From Burkholderiales bacterium (GTDB lineage Bacteria > Pseudomonadota > Gammaproteobacteria > Burkholderiales > Burkholderiaceae_C), in contig JBBQZA010000001.1 in NCBI GenBank assembly GCA_038208175.1, positions 4,984 through 68,983 of the forward strand: DNA of 64,000 nt, in the 5' to 3' direction. The notes beneath the pieces are model-generated. The model saw nothing but the letters and a program-made list of their open reading frames with translations, did not search any database and was not told the DNA's origin. The translations under genes and the position numbers were made by a program. Shown in pieces: positions 32,543 to 39,575 of the stretch. The first letter of the stretch is position 1. Each line of letters opens with the position of its first letter.

Positions 32543-32602
32543 TTACAACGTTGGCGGTCACCGGGGAGCCGAAGGCGAGTCCAGTGGACCAACCGGTTAG
32601 CC
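32543..32602 (-). other. attC site (60 bp)
   Basis: Minus strand GGCTAAC-CGGTT-GGTCCAC...GTGACC-GCCAAC-GTTGTAA; extra base in L''; DUF2442 stop codon lies inside R''. Confidence 0.8.
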
Positions 32603-33101: not shown

Positions 33102-33625
33102 ATCGGGATAGGAAGAAGCCTCACGGCCCCTCCCTCCCACACCACCGTGCGTACGGGTCACGTACACGGCGGTTCGGCAGATTGAGTCAGCATGCATCAA
33201 CACATTGTGCCAAATTGACACATTGAATCTGCGCATGACAACCGGAGCATCATTTCTGACCGCGCCAACCACGCGTTCACCCCAGCCCGCAGACTCACGC
33301 CCACAGGACTCGCCGGGTGCAGTCGCATCATTCCTTGGCAAGTGATTTCCCCTCTCTTTCAATCCCCTCTCGGGGCACCGTTCGGGCCTTTGGAAAACCC
33401 TTTGTGGCTCGGCGCCTTGGCTGGTCCACTACGCCCTCTGCTGACTTCTGTGCTGCGGTCAAGGCCGGTTTCCCGTCCTTCCGTCGTTGCCGCTTTCGCG
33501 TTGGCGACACAGGGCAGATCTCCCGTGGTAAGACACGAATCCTTCCTCGCATAGACGCCGGATTTACAAAATGCAGCCCATTTGCAGATGGAGGGCTTGG
33601 TGGTCACGTGCCCACTGGCCCCGGT
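33102..33625 (-). mobile_element. Group II intron, class IIC, ORF-less and 5'-truncated, inserted at an attC core site
   Basis: Minus strand: domain V GAACCGCCGTGTACGTGACCCGTACGCACGGTGGTGT (33175-33139), domain VI ending CTATCCCGAT at 33102; upstream class-C-like segments TCTTACCACGGGAGATCTG and AGAAGTCAGCAGAGGGCGTAGT; no RT motifs; 3' exon TAGCC. Confidence 0.85.
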
Positions 33626-33741: not shown

Positions 33742-34221
33742 CTACAAGCGTGCCTGACCAGCGGCTCGCTTGAGCAACATGACACGGTTAGTCGCGAACC
33801 AATCGCCAACTTTTTCCAGGAAAGGTGCCGCAATTGCGATTCCCTCTTCTACTTCATCGACCTCCACCTTGAAAGCGGCGCGGTACTTGCGGTTTCTCCA
33901 ATCGCGCAGGGTGTCCAATTCATCGAACTGATGTTGCGTGAGCCCGACCGCTTGGGCCGCGCCCTCGAGTACCACCGCATGGTGCCCCTTTTCGCTTCCA
34001 GCTCGATACCCTTGGGCGCATGCAACGGCCAGACAGCAAAAAAGAACGGCGTCATAGGCCGCGTCCATACGGGTGGCTGGTGACACCGCCTTCATCCTCG
34101 CGTCTTTGAGCTTGATTTGCGCCTGCTGCAGCCAGGACATCACGTCTGGGCCATTAGCCGGCTGCTCGCGTAGCGGCGAGCCCGGCTCAGCGCTCAGTTT
34201 CTGAAATGACTGCAGCATCAA
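33742..34221 (-). CDS. HEPN-domain protein (MNT-HEPN TA partner)
   Basis: AYDAVL, GHHAVV, LRDWRNRKY; overlaps the MNT gene end. Confidence 0.7.
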   Translation of the reverse strand: MMLQSFQKLSAEPGSPLREQPANGPDVMSWLQQAQIKLKDARMKAVSPATRMDAAYDAVLFCCLAVACAQGYRAGSEKGHHAVVLEGAAQAVGLTQHQFDELDTLRDWRNRKYRAAFKVEVDEVEEGIAIAAPFLEKVGDWFATNRVMLLKRAAGQARL

Positions 34222-34786
34222 AATCCCCTATCAATGCGATCTTCGGGCCGCGCACGATTTCGCCTGCAAAACTCTCCCTAGCCTGGATCTGATTTCGAAA
34301 ACCTTTGATGGTACTGACGGATGCATGGACTGGGCGCCCGAGCTTGCGGCCAACAGGTTTGAGAAGGGTGTTGAGCTTCAACTCAGAGACGTTGCCGAGC
34401 GCGAGCACATCGATGTCGCTGTCGGCGTTTTCATCGCCGCGTGCAATGGAGCCAAAGAGGAGCGCAACCTGGACGCCTTCCACGCCATCGAGAAAGTCGC
34501 GAAGGGCATGGACCAACGCGCTGTCTTGCTGCATCAGCGTGACCAAGGGTGCCAAAGAAGTGTCCTTGCTCGCGTAGTACCGAGGCAGCCCGTCTTTTTG
34601 TACCCGCTGCACGAGTCCCGCCTCCGTCCACCGTTTCAGTAGGCGGGAGACGTTCCCGGGGTCTATGCCGGCTGCTTTGGCCAGTTCCCGTTGGCCGAAA
34701 CCTCGACCTGGCTCAGAAAAAATCGCACGCAATGCCTTGTACCGGTCGGCGCTTCCGAAGATCTCAGTGAGAGTGGCTTGGTTCAT
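34187..34786 (-). CDS. Minimal nucleotidyltransferase with N-terminal HTH (MNT antitoxin)
   Basis: LFGSIARG...DSDIDVL; N-terminal GQRELAKAAGIDPGNVSRLL HTH. Confidence 0.85.
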   Translation of the reverse strand: MNQATLTEIFGSADRYKALRAIFSEPGRGFGQRELAKAAGIDPGNVSRLLKRWTEAGLVQRVQKDGLPRYYASKDTSLAPLVTLMQQDSALVHALRDFLDGVEGVQVALLFGSIARGDENADSDIDVLALGNVSELKLNTLLKPVGRKLGRPVHASVSTIKGFRNQIQARESFAGEIVRGPKIALIGDFDAAVISETER

Positions 34787-34866: not shown

Positions 34867-34946
34867 ACATCGGCGCCGCGACTGGTCCAGCGCAAACATC
34901 CGAACATGGTCCGGGTTGATGATTCGGCTGGCCTGATTCAGGCAAT

Positions 34947-35040
34947 GGCGACATTGCACTGTAGAACCGATACCCTGATCTGCGGCCACTGGAACGTGCG
35001 GCAATCCGGCAACTGCTGCAGGATGCGTTTGAGGGGGATG
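34947..35040 (+). pseudogene. C-terminal remnant of maleylacetate-reductase-like gene, copy 2
   Basis: GDIAL*NRYPDLRPLERAAIRQLLQDAFEGD; 50/53 nt identical to copy 1 over 34983-35035. Confidence 0.6.
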
Positions 35041-35216: not shown

Positions 35217-35393
35217 CTTGTCGGAACGGATAGCGCGCAAGCAAGGCTTCCATCATTCTCCGCCCAATACCCTTCCGCTGAAAATTAGGATGCACTAGCA
35301 GATGCGGAAAGTACACGACCACCCGTTCCCTCTGTAAATAGCGAGGACTTCTTCTGCGTCGACGTTGTCGGAAAGAGAAATGTTCGCATCCAT
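35212..35393 (-). pseudogene. GNAT acetyltransferase cassette remnant (internal deletion, truncated)
   Basis: MDANISLSDNVDAEEVLAIYRGNGWS, then in another frame VYFPHLLVHPNFQRKGIGRRMMEALLARY (GNAT motif A). Confidence 0.7.
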
Positions 35394-35408
35394 GGCAGCG
35401 ATTGGGAG

Positions 35409-35472
35409 GTCTAACGTTGGAGCTACGCGGCGACGCGCTTGCGCGGCGTCCGGCTTGAGCGCGCAGTTATAC
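35409..35472 (-). other. attC site (64 bp)
   Basis: Minus strand GTATAAC-TGCGC-GCTCAAG...CGTAGC-TCCAAC-GTTAGAC. Confidence 0.85.
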
Positions 35473-35746
35473 GTGCCGGCCCGTCCACAAGGCGACCCGA
35501 AACATATTTGTGAAGCACACTGGCCATCAATGTTTGGTATGGCAGCCCCTCTGCTGCCGCTTTGGCCTGGAGCCCCTCAAGATCAATTGCCGAAATGCGG
35601 ATGTTCACACGCCTATTCTTAAGCAATGTTTCGGCCGCCGCTTCGCGATAGCGATCCATTTCCTTTTTCAGATTCTTTATAGGTTCCCATTCGCCTTTTT
35701 CAAACGAGCGCAGGACTTCCGCTTCGTACTCTTTATCACTCTTCAT
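35423..35746 (-). CDS. CopG/BrnA-like antitoxin
   Basis: KNRRVNIRISAIDLEGLQAKAAAEGLPYQTLMASVLHKYV ribbon-helix-helix; ORF runs into the attC. Confidence 0.82.
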   Translation of the reverse strand: MKSDKEYEAEVLRSFEKGEWEPIKNLKKEMDRYREAAAETLLKNRRVNIRISAIDLEGLQAKAAAEGLPYQTLMASVLHKYVSGRLVDGPARITARSSRTPRKRVAA

Positions 35747-36029
35747 CGCTAACCTCGCTTAGAAATCGCTTCGTCGCTTTGCGACTAGGCATGATTGTCT
35801 TAAGGAATATTTCATCTTCTGACTCGACCAACGGGACCAGGTGGGCGTAGGCTCGGACCTTCACCACCCAAATTCTCTGGTTCGGATACTTTCGCTGATT
35901 GGGATGGTCTAAAACAGTCAGTAGACCGCCCTGCTCAATGCTCGAGAGGATCTCCTCAAACGAAACGCCTCGCTCTTGCATGAGTTCGATATTCTTCTCA
36001 GGGTTCCAGCGAATCGGCTTTTTTTGCAT
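35736..36029 (-). CDS. BrnT-like toxin
   Basis: WNPEKN..L..ERGVSFEE, HPNQ.KYP.Q, VP.VE...EIFLKTI.PSRKAT. Confidence 0.82.
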   Translation of the reverse strand: MQKKPIRWNPEKNIELMQERGVSFEEILSSIEQGGLLTVLDHPNQRKYPNQRIWVVKVRAYAHLVPLVESEDEIFLKTIMPSRKATKRFLSEVSDEE

Positions 36030-36038
36030 CTAGGCAGC

Positions 36039-36068
36039 ATTATACCGCCGTGTGCCGTATGTGCTCAA
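36039..36068 (-). promoter_or_regulatory. Sigma70-like promoter TTGAGC-N18-TATAAT for the BrnT/BrnA-like pair
   Basis: Perfect -10 hexamer 9 bp upstream of the toxin ATG. Confidence 0.6.
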
Positions 36069-36074
36069 TTGTAT

Positions 36075-36577
36075 ATCGAGTCGGGGCGTGTCGCGCTCGG
36101 CGTCATGGAAGGCGCGGTCATGGAGCATCAGTTGGGCCTGGTGGAAGGCCCTTGCTGGCTGGAAGCGAGTAGCGCGGTACTGAACTTGGCGCATACGGTG
36201 GATGCGGTGGCTGAAACCGAAGTCTGCCTGCGACAGGTGCCGCTGGCCGAATTTCACCGTTCGCTGGCCCGCATGTCAGGGTCGGCCCAAGTCGTGTTCC
36301 ATGACATGGCGCTGGCACATCGCCAGCAGACCGAGTTCGCCGTCAGTCGCCTCGCCAAGGACGCCGAGGCGCGCTGTGCCGAGTGGTTGCTGCGTCATGC
36401 CGAAACCGGTGACGAGGGCGTGATGGCAGTGTTGCTGCAGCGGCGCAACTCGGCATTGCCCCTGAAACCCTGTCCCGCGTGCTGCGCCATCTGCGTGAGC
36501 GCTGCCTGATCAGCGGCTCCGGGCGCACCTTGAATGTGGTTGACCCGGGCGGCTTGCGCACGCTGGCCGGGTTTTAA
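36075..36577 (+). pseudogene. Crp/Fnr family regulator remnant (5'-truncated, frameshifted)
   Basis: EGPCWLE, AEARCAEWLL, then in another frame LGIAPETLSRVLRHLRERCLISG (Crp HTH). Confidence 0.75.
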
Positions 36578-36733
36578 GGGTGGACTGATTGCGGTCCATC
36601 ACCCGCTCCACTTTCTGTCTGTTTGACAGGATACATGCCGGACGCTTGCGATCAGAAAATTCAAGAATAGAGCAAAGACCGGCAAGAAAACGACATACCC
36701 TGTCGTTGACACCCACCCTGCAAACTCCTGCGC

Positions 36734-36792
36734 ACGTTACATTAGAGTTAAGCGGGCGGCTGCAAGCCAGTCCGACTTGAACGACGTTAGGC
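36734..36792 (-). other. attC site (59 bp), R' core degenerate
   Basis: Minus strand GCCTAAC-GTC-GTTCAAG...CTTAAC-TCTAAT-GTAACGT. Confidence 0.7.
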
Positions 36793-37536
36793 GTCTTCCG
36801 CTTTGCTGTGCCGACTGAGGAAGTCTTTTGCTTCATGAACGAGTCGCTCCTGTAGTTTGGCATGTTTCACATTTGGCGAAGGTTGCTCCAGCATTCGTTT
36901 TACCGAATAGCGGGCGGGGCGCAGTGTCGGTTTGTGTCCATTGAAGTACAGGCTCCAGAGCGACGAGTAGAGGCGAGCAAGAAAGACTAGGATCTGTCGC
37001 AACTCCTTGAGATTTGTCTTGGCGAACAGCTCACCCACTTCTTCGCGCGTAGTGACGCCACGATGGGCAAATACCTTGTGGCGACACGGGCGGTATTTCT
37101 CTTCGTAGAGCTTTCGCCTAACTGTGACGTGCCGCTTCAAGTTTCGGAAATCTTCTCGCGATGGCACATACACCGTCGCAAGATACTCGGGTAGCCATTC
37201 TTCTGCGTTCGCGCTGAGCTTGCGCTTTCGGTTGGCCAGTGCGTCTTTGGAGAAAATGTCGAGATTCGCATGTGCCAGCGCCAAGAGTCGCGTGACGCTG
37301 TAGTTGCTCTGATCGGGGTCGAAGATTCGCCCTAGTGCCACAAGTGCAGAGGCCTGAAGCGCACCGAGCGCAGTATTCCAGAACAGTGGTGCCTCATTGA
37401 GCATGCGGAAGACCGCCTTGTCTTTGGCCGCGACGGCGTGTACTGCATCCCATGCGAAGAAAAACTGCAGCGCGCTCTCCGCCTCGGTACGAAATAGCTC
37501 TAGCTGTCTCTCGAAGTCTGCGGACGGCGATGGCAT
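36787..37536 (-). CDS. HEPN AbiU2-like cassette protein (249 aa)
   Basis: LGRIFD, RHKVFAH (RxxxxH-type motif); cassette core GTTAGGCGT is the exact 9-bp complement of its own R'' ACGCCTAAC. Confidence 0.65.
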   Translation of the reverse strand: MPSPSADFERQLELFRTEAESALQFFFAWDAVHAVAAKDKAVFRMLNEAPLFWNTALGALQASALVALGRIFDPDQSNYSVTRLLALAHANLDIFSKDALANRKRKLSANAEEWLPEYLATVYVPSREDFRNLKRHVTVRRKLYEEKYRPCRHKVFAHRGVTTREEVGELFAKTNLKELRQILVFLARLYSSLWSLYFNGHKPTLRPARYSVKRMLEQPSPNVKHAKLQERLVHEAKDFLSRHSKAEDA

Positions 37537-37548
37537 GAGCGTAGAGAC

Positions 37549-37614
37549 GCCTAACGTAGAGGTCACCGGCGGAGCACCGCAGGCGCGAAGTCCGCGTGAA
37601 CCGTAGGGTTGGCA
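37549..37614 (-). other. attC site (66 bp)
   Basis: Minus strand TGCCAAC-CCTAC-GGTTCAC...GTGACC-TCTAC-GTTAGGC; canonical 5-bp spacers and extra base in L''. Confidence 0.9.
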
Positions 37615-38156
37615 CCGGCCAGCGCTTGCCATGCGGCATGTATGTGTTCATAGAGTGCAAGGAGTTGATCGACTCTAGGGCGCGAAGCCGTGTTTGGAAT
37701 GTTCGTCGCATCGATGTGCTCGACTGAACCAACGACAACCGAAGGGACATCGTAGTTCTCTTTGAGCGACTCCTTCGTCCATTTGGGCGTCGGGTACCTT
37801 CCGGCCCAGACAACATATCGTTCGGCGTGAAGCATCAGTTGTTCTTGTTCGGCGCTCAAAAACCCAGCTCCGCAGAGAACGATGACATCGTGACGGTAGA
37901 TGTCTTCTCGCGGCCCTGCATTACTTCTAAGGTAGTAGGCTTTGGCGATTAACTCCAAGGCCAGCGATGCGAGGAACTCTGCCGTCGGAAGCAGCATGAT
38001 GCTCTGAAACGTGGGGGATTCAATTGCAGCGTCGAAATCGCTCAGAAGCTGCTTTGAGGAGACGAGAAATTGCCTGGACTTGAATTCCCAGGTGTCATGA
38101 TCGAACGCAGCGGCGTCGCCGTCGGCTCGCCAACTGATAGAAGTGCCTGGCTGCAT
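37563..38156 (-). CDS. Hypothetical cassette protein, possibly HEPN-fold
   Basis: LALELIAKAY...HDVIVLC and WAGRYP resemble HEPN-like helical proteins; ORF ends inside the attC. Confidence 0.55.
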   Translation of the reverse strand: MQPGTSISWRADGDAAAFDHDTWEFKSRQFLVSSKQLLSDFDAAIESPTFQSIMLLPTAEFLASLALELIAKAYYLRSNAGPREDIYRHDVIVLCGAGFLSAEQEQLMLHAERYVVWAGRYPTPKWTKESLKENYDVPSVVVGSVEHIDATNIPNTASRPRVDQLLALYEHIHAAWQALAGANPTVHADFAPAVLRR

Positions 38157-38163
38157 ATGAGGG

Positions 38164-38253
38164 GCCTAATCGATTAGAGCTAACCGGCGCTGCGCGGCTT
38201 TATCGCGCAGCGTCCAGCGACCGAAGGGAGCGAGGTTGAGCGCCATGGTAGGT
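38164..38253 (-). other. attC site (90 bp), both cores mutated
   Basis: Plus strand GCCTAAT...GAGCTAACCGGCGCTGCGCGGCTTTATCGCGCAGCGTCC...GGTTGAGCGCCATGGTAGGT; cores read ATTAGGC and ACCTACC on minus. Confidence 0.65.
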
Positions 38254-38272
38254 CGGTCAGTGCGCATGGCAG

Positions 38273-38776
38273 TCATTTGCCTTCCAATAGCTTTCTTTTC
38301 TGAGCTTCAAATTCGGCTTCAGTCAGAATTCCGCGCTTGCGGAGGTCGTCGAGCTTGATGAGTTCGGCGTAGACGTCTTTGGGGCGGTCAGTTTGATCCT
38401 TGGTTTTCACGTCCGAAGTAATCTTCTCGGTCTTCTCAATAACGACATCTGCTCTTGGCACAAGGGACGTTCTGCGAACCTCTGGGTCGTTCTTGTCGAC
38501 GACCCTGAATTGGTATTCGAATGACGCCCATTGAGCAGGGCCGTTGCCCATGGGCTTCTCTTTCGAGGAGAGCGGAATTGCAACCTTGCCTTGACTCTCT
38601 GCGAAGGCATTTGCATCGTTGATGACACCTGCCTTCAACGCACTCGTGCTCGCAAATATGCCGCCGTGTGCTTCTCTTGACAGCATGTATGTATCAGGGG
38701 AGAGCTTAACGATGCCTGGATTCGCGCAACCAGACAAAGCGGCGATGCTCAAACAGAATGCCAGTGTGTTTCGCAT
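38273..38776 (-). CDS. Lipoprotein with C-terminal SHOCT domain (cassette)
   Basis: Lipobox LSGC; C-terminal ELIKLDDLRKRGILTEAEFEAQKRKLL. Confidence 0.85.
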   Translation of the reverse strand: MRNTLAFCLSIAALSGCANPGIVKLSPDTYMLSREAHGGIFASTSALKAGVINDANAFAESQGKVAIPLSSKEKPMGNGPAQWASFEYQFRVVDKNDPEVRRTSLVPRADVVIEKTEKITSDVKTKDQTDRPKDVYAELIKLDDLRKRGILTEAEFEAQKRKLLEGK

Positions 38777-38808
38777 GAATTCTCCAAGGAGGTGGGATTG
38801 AAAGCGAG

Positions 38809-38892
38809 ACCTAACGATCAGCGTTTATCTGCCGAGAGGCAAAGCTGGAAGAAACCAAGAGCGCCTCCTTCGGCAGATAAACCACGTTGGAC
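38809..38892 (-). other. attC-like site (84 bp), near-identical to 39492-39575
   Basis: GTCCAAC...GTTAGGT ends; 12-bp arms GTTTATCTGCCG/CGGCAGATAAAC; atypical spacers. Confidence 0.75.
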
Positions 38893-39043
38893 TGAACCGC
38901 CGGCACAGCGGTTGACTTACAGGGGACTGTAAGTTTGAAGCGGATGAAGCGGGACAGTTTTGAGCACAGTGCTGGGCTGACTGCGGCTGTGTGTGATGCG
39001 TGCACGGCAGCCACCGAGTCGCATGATGCGTTTACCCCCTGCA

Positions 39044-39484
39044 TCATCGGCGCGCACCTTGAACGCCGCGTGCATGTTTTGTGGGCGTGATGTGGCGGGG
39101 AGGAAAGTACCACCAGGCGGCCACGACGAGCAAGCCGAACAGCGTGTATGCGAGGGTAAACGCCCAGAACGGAGCCTCGTAGTAGAGCAGACGTTGAACC
39201 CAGTGTTCGATGAAGCCGTGCTCGTACGCAGGCTGTGCGCACTGTACGCGAAGCCATGATTCGAGTGTGGTGAGTGGGCAGAGTTTGCCGAGCCAGGACT
39301 GTGCGACGACGACGCCGATTGCGGCAAGGTGAGCGAGGCGGAACCAGATGTTGTTGACCCAACGCCAAGAGCGGAGGTTGCCTACGATGACCATGAACAG
39401 GCCGCCGACAACGAACACGACGACTGCGAAGTGCAGAAGAAGCACCGCATCAGCCAGTAGCTGATACGGCAGAGACGGTTGCAT
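39044..39484 (-). CDS. DUF2784-family membrane protein (cassette)
   Basis: LADAVLLLHF..V.FVVGG, FRLAHL, CPLTTLE.WLR, FIEHWVQRLLYY. Confidence 0.85.
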   Translation of the reverse strand: MQPSLPYQLLADAVLLLHFAVVVFVVGGLFMVIVGNLRSWRWVNNIWFRLAHLAAIGVVVAQSWLGKLCPLTTLESWLRVQCAQPAYEHGFIEHWVQRLLYYEAPFWAFTLAYTLFGLLVVAAWWYFPPRHITPTKHARGVQGARR

Positions 39485-39491
39485 TTGCGGC

Positions 39492-39575
39492 GCCTAACGA
39501 TTAGCGTTTATCTGCCGCGAGGCAAAGCTGGAAGAAACCATGATCGCCTCCTTCGGCAGATAAACCTTGTTGGAC
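39492..39575 (-). other. attC-like site (84 bp), first of the array
   Basis: GTCCAAC...GTTAGGC; DUF2784 ATG lies 7 bp after the core. Confidence 0.75.

What the first reader, a model, noticed from the sequence alone, without database searches (positions are those of the whole stretch)
36787..38156. Two adjacent intact HEPN-like cassettes: candidate anti-phage effectors
Seen: a 249-aa protein with RHKVFAH and a 197-aa protein with LALELIAK...HD and GRYP motifs. Both have open frames despite the decay around them, and no antitoxin. Established: stand-alone HEPN RNases such as the AbiU2 type are associated with abortive infection. Inference: one or two uncharacterised defence genes. The 197-aa protein is the best candidate here for a new family.
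Basis: inference. Interest (0 to 1): 0.62.

Follow-up and report, generated by a model that had tools for sequence, protein, structure and literature searches.

The report
Two HEPN genes as integron cassettes
Two neighbouring intact genes are separate mobile integron cassettes in a decaying, integrase-less array: one is a known AbiU2-type predicted RNase, the other founds a rare unannotated branch of the classical HEPN domain; both are plausible but untested single-gene phage-defence genes.

Summary
Both ORFs and their motifs are real.

**The 249-aa protein (36787-37536, minus strand).** It is an ordinary member of Pfam HEPN_AbiU2 (E 2e-31). R152-x5-H158 is invariant among relatives, it has hundreds of homologs, and dN/dS is 0.07.

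**The 197-aa protein (37563-38156, minus strand).**
- It has no Pfam, NCBIfam, PADLOC or PHROGs hit.
- It has about 50 homologs and occurs in 1 of 400 other genomes of its class.
- Profile-profile comparison (95.7%, E 8.5e-9), a transitive Pfam link and the top four Foldseek hits all place it with the classical HEPN domain (PF05168).
- It has E68-x3-K72, an invariant H89 and R120-Y121-P122, but no H in the Rx4-6H position.

- A recognisable attC site (37549-37613) lies between them.
- Five attC sites on the minus strand span 32.5-39.6 kb.
- Homologs of each gene elsewhere sit between attC sites.
- The two families never co-occur in the 15 other loci examined.
- The array has no integrase. An intI pseudogene lies on another contig.

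**Verdict.** These are two independent, single-gene HEPN cassettes stacked by cassette shuffling, not a two-gene system. A defence role is inferred. It has experimental support only for another AbiU2-domain cassette, from Vibrio mimicus.

The parts
37563..38156 (-). 197-aa ORF (P0002). Founding member here of a rare, unannotated, cassette-borne family with a divergent classical HEPN (PF05168-like) core. The last ~17 codons read into the downstream attC.
   Evidence: ORF and translation. No Pfam, NCBIfam, PADLOC or PHROGs hit. 50 homologs, all 'hypothetical'. AF2 model pLDDT 82. Top four Foldseek PDB hits are HEPN proteins. hhalign against PF05168 domains gives 95.7%, E 8.5e-9.
37941..37955 (-). 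Codons E68-K72, the Ex3K motif on predicted helix 2 (H50-78).
   Evidence: Invariant in 28 and in 60 relatives. Aligns with the E-K-x-x-K of PF05168 domains. Ex3[KR] is a recurrent HEPN feature (PMC3710099).
37890..37892 (-). Codon H89, an invariant histidine N-terminal of the R motif and a candidate alternative catalytic His.
   Evidence: Aligns with the 'tHdL' His of PF05168. An alternative His is described for AF0298-type HEPN-T proteins.
37779..37808 (-). Codons W117-W126, WAGRYPTPKW, the family signature. R120 sits at the end of predicted helix 3 (H102-119), where HEPN domains carry the R of Rx4-6H. There is no His at +5 to +7.
37549..37613 (-). attC site between the two genes. It is full length, with a one-base deletion in the R'' core and an intact GTTAGGC R' core. 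The P0002 stop codon lies inside it.
   Evidence: Covariance model R1: 18.2 bits, E 0.015 over the whole window and 4e-4 over 1.7 kb, with the alignment shown. It aligns with the attC upstream of AbiU2 in L012.
36787..37536 (-). 249-aa ORF (P0001), a HEPN_AbiU2 family protein.
   Evidence: Pfam PF18734, E 2e-31, 109.4 bits. At least 398 homologs; the 120 listed all carry PF18734. dN/dS 0.07 against L012.
37063..37083 (-). Codons R152-H158, RHKVFAH, the Rx5H catalytic motif of the AbiU2 protein. It lies at the end of the long predicted helix H127-156.
38164..38241 (-). Degenerate attC-type element upstream of P0002: GCTCAAC ... TGCGCG/CGCGCA hairpin ... ATTAGGC. It forms the 5' boundary of the P0002 cassette.
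   Evidence: Aligns with the intact attC upstream of AbiU2 in L012. Folds weakly (z -1.8). Not found by model R1. Contig word depth in the probable source metagenome jumps from ~7 to 1294 across 38093-38239, with many diverging loose ends that carry core-site-like letters.
36734..36792 (-). Remnant of the attC after AbiU2. It has a perfect R'' core, GCCTAAC, overlapping the stop codon, but no recognisable R' core or hairpin.
   Evidence: Sequence. No fold above shuffles (z +0.15). Model R1 gives 4.1 bits. DNA homology with L012 ends exactly where the L012 attC begins.
38809..38892 (-). Intact 84-nt attC site (GTCCAAC ... GTTAGGT).
39492..39575 (-). Intact 84-nt attC site, 93% identical to the previous one. 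It marks the 5' end of the array, next to a LysR gene.
35409..35472 (-). attC site after the BrnT/BrnA cassette.
   Evidence: Model R1: 25.6 bits, E 1.8e-4. This site was not in the training set. Gene assignments.
32543..32602 (-). attC site at the distal end of the array.
   Evidence: Model R1: 20 bits, E 0.005. Not in the training set.

Best explanation
**What is there (shown).**
- The stretch holds two independent, single-gene integron cassettes.
- They lie side by side in a ~7-kb integrase-less attC array (a CALIN, 32.5-39.6 kb, minus strand), inserted between housekeeping genes.

**Cassette 1 (shown to be a family member; function inferred).**
- It encodes a typical AbiU2-family HEPN protein.
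- By inference from the family it is a metal-independent endoribonuclease. Its Rx5H motif (R152/H158) would form a composite active site in a homodimer.
- It would be harmless at rest and, on phage infection, cut host or phage RNA so that infection aborts.

**Cassette 2 (fold and family shown; activity inferred).**
- It encodes a 197-aa protein of a rare, unannotated family that travels almost only as integron cassettes.
- Its core is a divergent classical HEPN (PF05168 / HEPN-T) four-helix domain plus a ~60-residue C-terminal extension.
[quoted passage not shown] It lacks the canonical His.
- If it is an RNase, it uses the alternative E/K/H/R(Y) site proposed for AF0298-type HEPN proteins.
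- I think it most likely works as a second, self-contained RNA-targeting growth-arrest or abortive-infection effector.

**How the two relate.**
- They do not form a system. Cassette recombination put them together.
- Whether either is expressed in this array, which has no Pc promoter, is unknown.
For: **AbiU2 identity.**
- Pfam PF18734, 109 bits.
- At least 398 homologs; the 120 listed all carry PF18734.
- Invariant R152 and H158.
- dN/dS 0.07.
- A V. mimicus integron cassette protein with a HEPN AbiU2 domain is reported to form a dimer and give T4 and T7 resistance (bioRxiv 10.64898/2026.03.17.712381).

**P0002 as HEPN.**
- AF2 model with pLDDT 82.
- The four best Foldseek PDB hits are the classical HEPN proteins 1ufb, 1wol, 2hsb and 1o3u, probability 0.85-0.96.
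- PF05168 is the only Pfam family hit by more than one family member.
- A distant relative, P0201 (E 5.7e-10 to the family profile), passes the PF05168 cut-off (25.6 against 22 bits).
- hhalign of the 60-sequence family against 24 PF05168 domains gives 95.7%, E 8.5e-9. E68/K72, H89 and R120-Y121-P122 fall on the HEPN motifs.
- Three other helical HEPN-type proteins used as controls give probabilities below 1%.
- The motif positions match the published HEPN anatomy (PMC3710099).

**Cassette status.**
- attC model hits, all on the minus strand, at 39492, 38809, 35409, 32543 and 37549.
- P0002 homologs are directly flanked by attC in L001, L004, L005, L006, L007, L009 and L056, and AbiU2 is flanked in L012.
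- An attC depth spike appears in the metagenome.
- An intI pseudogene lies on contig C339.

**Independence.**
- No AbiU2 is found in 11 P0002-family loci.
- No P0002 relative is found in 4 AbiU2 loci.
- No conserved neighbour of any kind is found.
Against: - No experiment bears on either protein.
- Neither protein hits PADLOC 2.0.
- P0002 itself does not reach any Pfam threshold.
- The Foldseek E-values for P0002 are weak (0.085-0.55; TM 0.33-0.58).
- P0002 lacks the canonical His, so it may be non-catalytic.
- L. lactis AbiU2 was not toxic in E. coli and was not shown to protect on its own (PMC3985639).
- The AbiU2 model found no informative structural neighbour.
- The attC sites flanking the pair on the outside are degenerate and are not recovered by the model.
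- The array has no integrase or Pc promoter, so the genes may be silent.
Confidence: 0.72

Rival explanations
1. The two genes form one two-component HEPN-HEPN system, for example a toxin and its modulator. This would resemble the 'Bxe_C0808 in operon with AbiU2' dyad listed by Anantharaman et al.
For: - The genes share a strand and are 26 nt apart.
- A HEPN family in operon with AbiU2 is on record (PMC3710099).
- In the Accumulibacter relative L012 the gene after AbiU2 also carries an RRNSFAH motif.
Against: - An attC site lies between the genes.
- None of 15 other loci has both families.
- P0002 is unrelated to the L012 neighbour. It also lacks the Rx4-6H that Bxe_C0808 is listed as having.
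- In L012 an attC likewise separates AbiU2 from its neighbour.
Confidence: 0.06
2. P0002 is an orphaned toxin of an MNT-HEPN (type VII, HepT/MntA-like) toxin-antitoxin pair. It would be kept in check in trans, for example by the HTH-MNT gene at 34187-34786, or have been tamed by mutation.
For: - Classical PF05168 HEPN domains usually pair with minimal nucleotidyltransferases (PMC3710099).
- An MNT gene lies 2.8 kb away in the same array.
- A conserved Tyr (Y121) follows R120. Tyr residues near the motif are AMPylated in HepT toxins (own knowledge).
Against: - No MNT is adjacent in any of the 11 P0002-family loci, and there is no conserved neighbour at all.
- The local MNT has its own overlapping partner gene (33742-34221), which is unrelated to P0002.
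- The family is under purifying selection as a solo gene.
Confidence: 0.08
3. P0002 is a non-catalytic HEPN domain, either a ligand-, nucleotide- or RNA-binding protein or a stress and dormancy factor, and has no role in phage defence.
For: - It lacks the His of Rx4-6H.
- HEPN domains without the motif are thought to be binding modules. Integron HEPN cassettes were proposed to act in the stress response (PMC3710099).
- It has no PADLOC hit.
Against: - E68, K72, H89 and R120 are invariant or nearly so down to 18% identity. That pattern is the one proposed as an alternative active site.
- Single-gene HEPN-like integron cassettes have been shown to protect against phage: Esos and an AbiU2 cassette.
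Confidence: 0.2
4. Both genes are silent cargo of a dead array and do nothing in this organism. They are intact only because they arrived recently.
For: - There is no integrase or Pc promoter at the array. The intI on another contig is frameshifted.
- The flanking attC sites are degenerate.
- No promoter-like site lies upstream of either gene.
- No RNA run was found.
Against: - The array is co-directional with the upstream LysR gene, so read-through transcription is possible.
- The purifying selection measured applies to the lineages, not to this copy.
- Identical sequence occurs in two metagenomes.
Confidence: 0.25

Closest known systems
Pfam PF18734 HEPN_AbiU2, typified by Lactococcus lactis AbiU2. 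It includes the Vibrio mimicus MB461 integron cassette HNPBCG_15845, reported to protect against T4 and T7 (bioRxiv 10.64898/2026.03.17.712381).
   Same: The 249-aa protein matches the model over nearly its whole length, keeps the Rx5H motif, is a stand-alone protein and is carried as an integron cassette.
   Different: Nothing of note. It is only unrelated in sequence to the tested Vibrio or Lactococcus proteins beyond family level (not compared directly), and it sits in an integrase-less array.
Classical HEPN domain, HEPN-T clade (Pfam PF05168; PDB 1o3u TM0613, 2hsb AF0298, 1wol ST0689, 1ufb TT1696).
   Same: - The 197-aa protein shares the four-helix core.
- It has Ex3K on helix 2, the 'tHxL' His after helix 2 and R-Y-P at the end of helix 3.
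- As in the AF0298-type proteins, the canonical His of Rx4-6H is missing and an upstream His is conserved.
   Different: - It does not reach the Pfam threshold.
- It has an extra N-terminal helix and a ~60-residue C-terminal extension with a beta-hairpin.
- It has its own W-x-G-R-Y-P-x-P-[KR]-W signature.
- It never has an MNT partner and is spread as integron cassettes.
'Integron cassette HEPN' family (PDB 3jrt) of Anantharaman et al. 2013, and the HEPN-like single-gene defence cassette Esos of the Vibrio cholerae chromosomal integron (bioRxiv 10.1101/2024.07.02.601686).
   Same: These are stand-alone HEPN-type proteins carried as single-gene integron cassettes. Esos has shown anti-phage activity with growth arrest or cell death.
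   Different: - 3jrt has a canonical Rx4-6H. It was not found by sequence profile or among the best 50 Foldseek matches.
Type VII toxin-antitoxin pairs HepT/MntA (HEPN toxin plus minimal nucleotidyltransferase).
   Same: A HEPN-type small protein with a conserved Tyr next to the motif Arg. Such pairs also occur in this same array.
   Different: There is no adjacent nucleotidyltransferase in any locus, and no Rx4H.

Membership tests
HEPN_AbiU2 (PF18734), for the 249-aa protein | Match to the family HMM above the curated cut-off | tested here: met
   109.4 bits against 26.8; residues 6-202 on profile positions 2-177 of 193. The whole-genome search gives the same result.
HEPN_AbiU2 (PF18734), for the 249-aa protein | Conserved Rx4-6H motif | tested here: met
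   R152-x5-H158 is invariant in 16 relatives of 60-89% identity.
HEPN_AbiU2 (PF18734), for the 249-aa protein | HEPN helical fold | tested here: inconclusive
   The AF2 model is all-helical (pLDDT 76.5), with the motif at the end of a long helix. Foldseek against PDB returns only generic helical bundles.
HEPN_AbiU2 (PF18734), for the 249-aa protein | RNase activity or abortive-infection phenotype | not testable with these tools
   Only literature on other members is available.
Classical HEPN / HEPN-T (PF05168), for the 197-aa protein | Match to the family HMM above the curated cut-off | tested here: not met
   P0002 has no hit. Three of 28 relatives hit weakly (best E 0.04). A distant relative, P0201, passes (25.6 against 22 bits).
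Classical HEPN / HEPN-T (PF05168), for the 197-aa protein | Profile-profile homology to bona fide PF05168 domains | tested here: met
   hhalign gives 95.7%, E 8.5e-9 over 84 columns. Controls give below 1%.
Classical HEPN / HEPN-T (PF05168), for the 197-aa protein | Four-helix bundle with Ex3[KR] on helix 2 and the motif Arg at the end of helix 3 | tested here: met
   In the model, E68/K72 lie in H50-78 and R120 follows H102-119. The top four Foldseek hits are HEPN proteins, though with weak E-values.
Classical HEPN / HEPN-T (PF05168), for the 197-aa protein | Canonical Rx4-6H | tested here: not met
   R120 is followed by YPTPKW, with no His. An alternative invariant H89 is present, as described for AF0298-type members.
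MNT-HEPN (type VII) toxin-antitoxin | Adjacent minimal nucleotidyltransferase gene | tested here: not met
   None is present next to P0002 or in any of the 11 family loci.
Integron gene cassette | ORF followed by an attC site (RYYYAAC ... imperfect hairpin ... GTTRRRY) on the same strand | tested here: met
   For P0002, the attC at 37549-37613 scores 18.2 bits. For AbiU2 only the R'' core remains, but its 89% relative in L012 lies between two strong attC sites of 52.9 and 47.6 bits.
Integron gene cassette | Homologs elsewhere occur as attC-flanked cassettes in different arrays | tested here: met
   Seen in L001, L004, L005, L006, L007, L009 and L056 for the P0002 family, and in L012 for AbiU2. 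L008, L010 and L013-L015 have no adjacent attC.
Complete integron | intI integrase and attI/Pc next to the array | tested here: not met
   The array is bounded by a LysR gene and housekeeping genes. The only integron-integrase-like gene in the genome is split over three frames on contig C339.
Integron cassette HEPN (PDB 3jrt) | Sequence or fold similarity to 3jrt | tested here: not met
   The profile search of PDB finds no hit, and 3jrt is not among the best 50 Foldseek matches.
Known defence systems in PADLOC-DB 2.0 | Match to any model | tested here: not met
   No family matches at E up to 1 for either protein.

The most novel reading that the evidence does not exclude
The 197-aa protein defines a new single-gene anti-phage system.
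- It would be a solo HEPN-T-type RNase with a non-canonical E68/K72/H89/R120-Y121 active site and a private C-terminal sensor module.
- It would need no MNT antitoxin.
- It would be disseminated almost exclusively by integron cassettes across Xanthomonadales, Burkholderiales-type betaproteobacteria, Planctomycetes and others.
Probability: 0.3. Interest if true: 0.55.

Novelty: new member of a known kind. Interest (0 to 1): 0.34.

Why it matters
Integron arrays are now recognised as stores of compact, single-gene phage-defence functions, and most cassette families have no annotation.

- **The AbiU2 cassette adds nothing new.** The same arrangement has been reported and is seen repeatedly.
- **The 197-aa family is a small, clean test case.** It shows that the classical MNT-associated HEPN domain also exists as a free-standing, cassette-borne protein that has swapped the canonical catalytic His for another.
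- **If it proves active,** it would give direct experimental access to the 'alternative active site' that was proposed in 2013 for AF0298-type HEPN proteins and, to my knowledge, never tested.
- **For annotation,** the family deserves a profile model. Its signature is L-x-x-E-x-x-x-K ... Y-x-H ... W-x-G-R-Y-P-x-P-[KR]-W.

Tried and rejected
- **Sequence profiles against PDB.** Family profiles of 28 and of 60 sequences gave only chance hits, to mitochondrial RNase P and to myosin.
- **Foldseek of the P0002 model against viral structures.** Nothing meaningful.
- **Foldseek of the AbiU2 model against PDB.** Only generic helical bundles.
- **PHROGs.** No hit for either protein.
- **Strict attC regular expression.** A search with RYYYAAC-N-GTTRRRY and complementary cores at first suggested there was no integron. 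This was overturned once the 84-nt twin repeats were read on the minus strand and a covariance model was built.
- **The 11-mer TTARCTCTAAT as a direct repeat.** It flanks the gene pair and looked like a repeat of a mobile unit. Local alignment of the flanks is no better than shuffles, with 46 of 500 reaching the score. The resemblance reflects two decayed attC sites.
- **An addiction-module antitoxin upstream of the distant relative in L010.** It seemed to suggest a toxin-antitoxin pairing. The stub of its own ParE-like toxin is still there, so the HEPN-like gene is not its partner.
- **Upstream genes of distant relatives in L054, L056, L007 and L001.** They are not homologous to each other.
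- **RNA evidence for expression.** Only two DNA metagenomes hold the sequence.
- **Homology of P0002 to the validated HEPN-like cassette Esos.** This could not be tested because that sequence was not at hand.
Full report
**1. The observation**

The minus strand carries two intact ORFs. One runs 38156 to 37563 (197 aa, P0002). The other runs 37536 to 36787 (249 aa, P0001).

A longer 281-aa frame for the second gene would start at 37632, inside the first gene. Homologs are 247 aa and begin at the same MPSPS, so the 249-aa start is right.

- RHKVFAH is at residues 152-158 of P0001.
- LALELIAKA (65-73), H89-D90 and G119-R-Y-P122 are in P0002.

**2. The 249-aa protein**

- It matches Pfam HEPN_AbiU2 (PF18734) at E 2e-31, 109 bits against a cut-off of 26.8, over almost the whole model.
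- It has at least 398 relatives in the 5.8-billion-protein collection. The 120 listed all carry PF18734, and several are already named 'AbiU2 domain-containing protein'. The closest (89%) is from a Candidatus Accumulibacter phosphatis MAG.
- R152 and H158 are invariant.
- dN/dS against the 89% relative is 0.07.
- The AF2 model is all-helical, with the motif at the end of a long helix. Foldseek against PDB was uninformative.
- It hits nothing in PADLOC or PHROGs.

On function the literature is thin:
- The HEPN assignment and predicted RNase activity come from Anantharaman et al. 2013 (PMC3710099).
- L. lactis abiU2 was not toxic in E. coli (PMC3985639).
- A 2026 preprint reports a V. mimicus integron cassette protein with a HEPN AbiU2 domain that forms a dimer and gives T4 and T7 resistance.

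**3. The 197-aa protein**

It has no hit in Pfam, NCBIfam, PADLOC or PHROGs. About 50 homologs of 43-82% identity exist, all unnamed or 'hypothetical' and typically 180 aa.

An exhaustive profile search of 1.84 billion cluster representatives found 214 proteins at E up to 1e-3, and only 10 at E up to 1e-30. In 400 other genomes sampled across the class, one had a relative, and that one was distant.

Invariant residues down to 18% identity are E68, K72, H89, W117 and G119. R120, Y121, P122 and P124 are conserved in at least 90%.

Four independent lines tie it to the classical HEPN domain:
- **Fold.** The AF2 model (pLDDT 82) is a helical bundle. Its four best PDB neighbours are 1ufb, 1wol, 2hsb and 1o3u, all classical HEPN proteins, with probability 0.85-0.96 but weak E-values.
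- **Pfam across the family.** PF05168 is the only Pfam family hit by more than one family member.
- **Transitive link.** A distant relative, P0201, matches the family profile at 5.7e-10 and passes the PF05168 cut-off.
- **Profile-profile comparison.** hhalign of the 60-sequence family against 24 PF05168 domains taken from genomes gives 95.7%, E 8.5e-9. E68/K72 fall on the E-K-x-x-K, H89 on the 'tHxL' His and R120-Y121-P122 on 'RYp'. The same profile against the AbiU2 family, the MNT-partner protein of this array and an Rx4H protein from L012 gives below 1%.

The anatomy fits the published description. Ex3[KR] lies on helix 2 and the motif Arg at the end of helix 3. In AF0298-type HEPN-T proteins the motif His is lost and an upstream conserved His is proposed as a substitute.

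P0002 therefore belongs to the HEPN superfamily, nearest the HEPN-T clade. It is a distinct, unmodelled family with an N-terminal helix, a C-terminal extension and the signature WxGRYPxP[KR]W.

**4. Context: an integron array**

The sequences upstream of P0002, between the two genes, and upstream of AbiU2 in the Accumulibacter locus L012 are alignable. The L012 copy folds into a neat hairpin bounded by CCCAAC and GTTGGG (z -2.9).

Two 84-nt repeats at 38809-38892 and 39492-39575 read, on the minus strand, GTCCAAC ... long imperfect hairpin ... GTTAGGY. That is the attC architecture.

A scan of homolog loci showed arrays of such sites. A covariance model built from 18 of them found five hits in the window, all on the minus strand and all between 32.5 and 39.6 kb:
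- the two training copies;
- 35409-35472 (E 1.8e-4);
- 32543-32602 (E 0.005);
- 37549-37613 (E 0.015 window-wide, 4e-4 locally), which lies exactly between the two genes.

The outer elements, at 38164-38241 and 36734-36792, are too decayed for the model. In the probable source metagenome, contig word depth jumps from about 7 to 1294 over the first of them. Many contigs diverge there into different flanks that carry core-site-like letters, as expected of a shared attC class.

In loci that were not used for training:
- P0002 homologs sit directly against attC sites in L004, L005, L006, L009 and L056.
- The Lysobacter locus L006 shows 14 or more sites.
- The Xanthomonas homolog lies in the well-known chromosomal integron of that genus.

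The array is bounded by housekeeping genes and a LysR gene, so it has no integrase. The only integron-integrase-like gene in the genome lies on another contig and is split over three frames.

The other cassettes carry:
- BrnT/BrnA;
- an HTH-MNT gene with a partner gene;
- DUF4160;
- a SHOCT lipoprotein;
- DUF2784.

Remnants of a group II intron are also present.

**5. Are the two genes a system?**

No, for four reasons:
- An attC separates them.
- None of the 11 P0002-family loci encodes AbiU2, and none of the 4 AbiU2 loci encodes a P0002 relative.
- An all-against-all comparison of flanking ORFs found no conserved neighbour.
- No MNT gene is adjacent to P0002 in any locus.

**6. Mechanism**

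Shown:
- family membership;
- conserved motifs;
- purifying selection;
- cassette status;
- independence of the two genes.

Inferred:
- Each protein is a self-contained RNA-targeting effector, kept harmless until infection.
- AbiU2 would work through a dimeric Rx5H site.
- P0002 would work through an E/K/H/R(Y) site, if it is catalytic at all.

Expression in this promoter-less array is unknown. No RNA data were found.

**7. Novelty**

AbiU2 cassettes in integrons are already described, and notes from this scan report several in other genomes.

The P0002 family is new as an annotated entity but is a new member of a known kind: solo HEPN proteins on integron cassettes. Interest is modest.

Noticed in passing
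window 38093-38239: In run X1 (sediment metagenome, probably the source) the summed contig word depth is 1294, against about 7 on either side. Many contigs break there into different flanks. The attC class upstream of P0002 is therefore shared by very many cassettes in that community. Smaller spikes (46-109) mark the two 84-nt attC sites.
   Followed up: partly
window 35347-39540: A second run, from another study (X2, salt-lake metagenome, 2020), holds pieces of the array at 100% identity. These include parts of both HEPN genes, at low depth. The same strain or array occurs in two sampled environments.
   Followed up: no
own genome contig C339:1012-1869 (locus L046): An integron-integrase-like gene is split over three reading frames and lacks its C-terminal catalytic part. 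It lies next to an ISL3-type transposase fragment. The pieces sum to about 278 bits against TIGR02249 (cut-off 265). It is a dead intI, not linked to the array in the assembly.
   Followed up: partly
window 33102-33174 and 33385-33482, minus strand; partial second copy at 34943-35035: Rfam finds group II intron domain 5/6 and D1-D4 pieces without a reverse-transcriptase ORF, on the same strand as the cassettes. A 93-nt, 80%-identical repeat of nearby sequence lies 1.3 kb away. Homolog loci L012 and L013 carry intact group II intron RT genes beside their AbiU2 cassettes.
   Followed up: no
L012 2933-3490: In the Accumulibacter relative, the cassette right after AbiU2 encodes a 185-aa protein with no Pfam hit but an RRNSFAH (R-N-x3-H) motif. 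It is possibly the 'Bxe_C0808' HEPN family that Anantharaman et al. list as 'in operon with AbiU2'. It is unrelated to P0002.
   Followed up: partly
window 33742-34786, minus strand: An HTH-fused minimal nucleotidyltransferase (199 aa) overlaps a 159-aa partner gene. The partner has no Pfam hit and carries WRNRKY instead of Rx4H. This is a variant MNT-HEPN-like pair in the same array.
   Followed up: no
window 38809-38892 and 39492-39575: Twin 84-nt attC sites, 93% identical, bracket the DUF2784 cassette. About 150 nt of non-coding DNA lies between that gene and its attC.
   Followed up: partly
window 35976-36509, plus strand: A 177-aa ORF opposite to the cassette direction has no Pfam hit. 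By eye it looks like the C-terminal part of a Crp/Fnr-type regulator. It fills most of the 'empty' stretch between the AbiU2 and BrnT cassettes.
   Followed up: no
L010 1099-1393: In a Verrucomicrobiaceae MAG the distant P0002 relative follows an addiction-module antitoxin gene and the first ~25 codons of its ParE-like toxin, as if it had replaced the toxin.
   Followed up: partly
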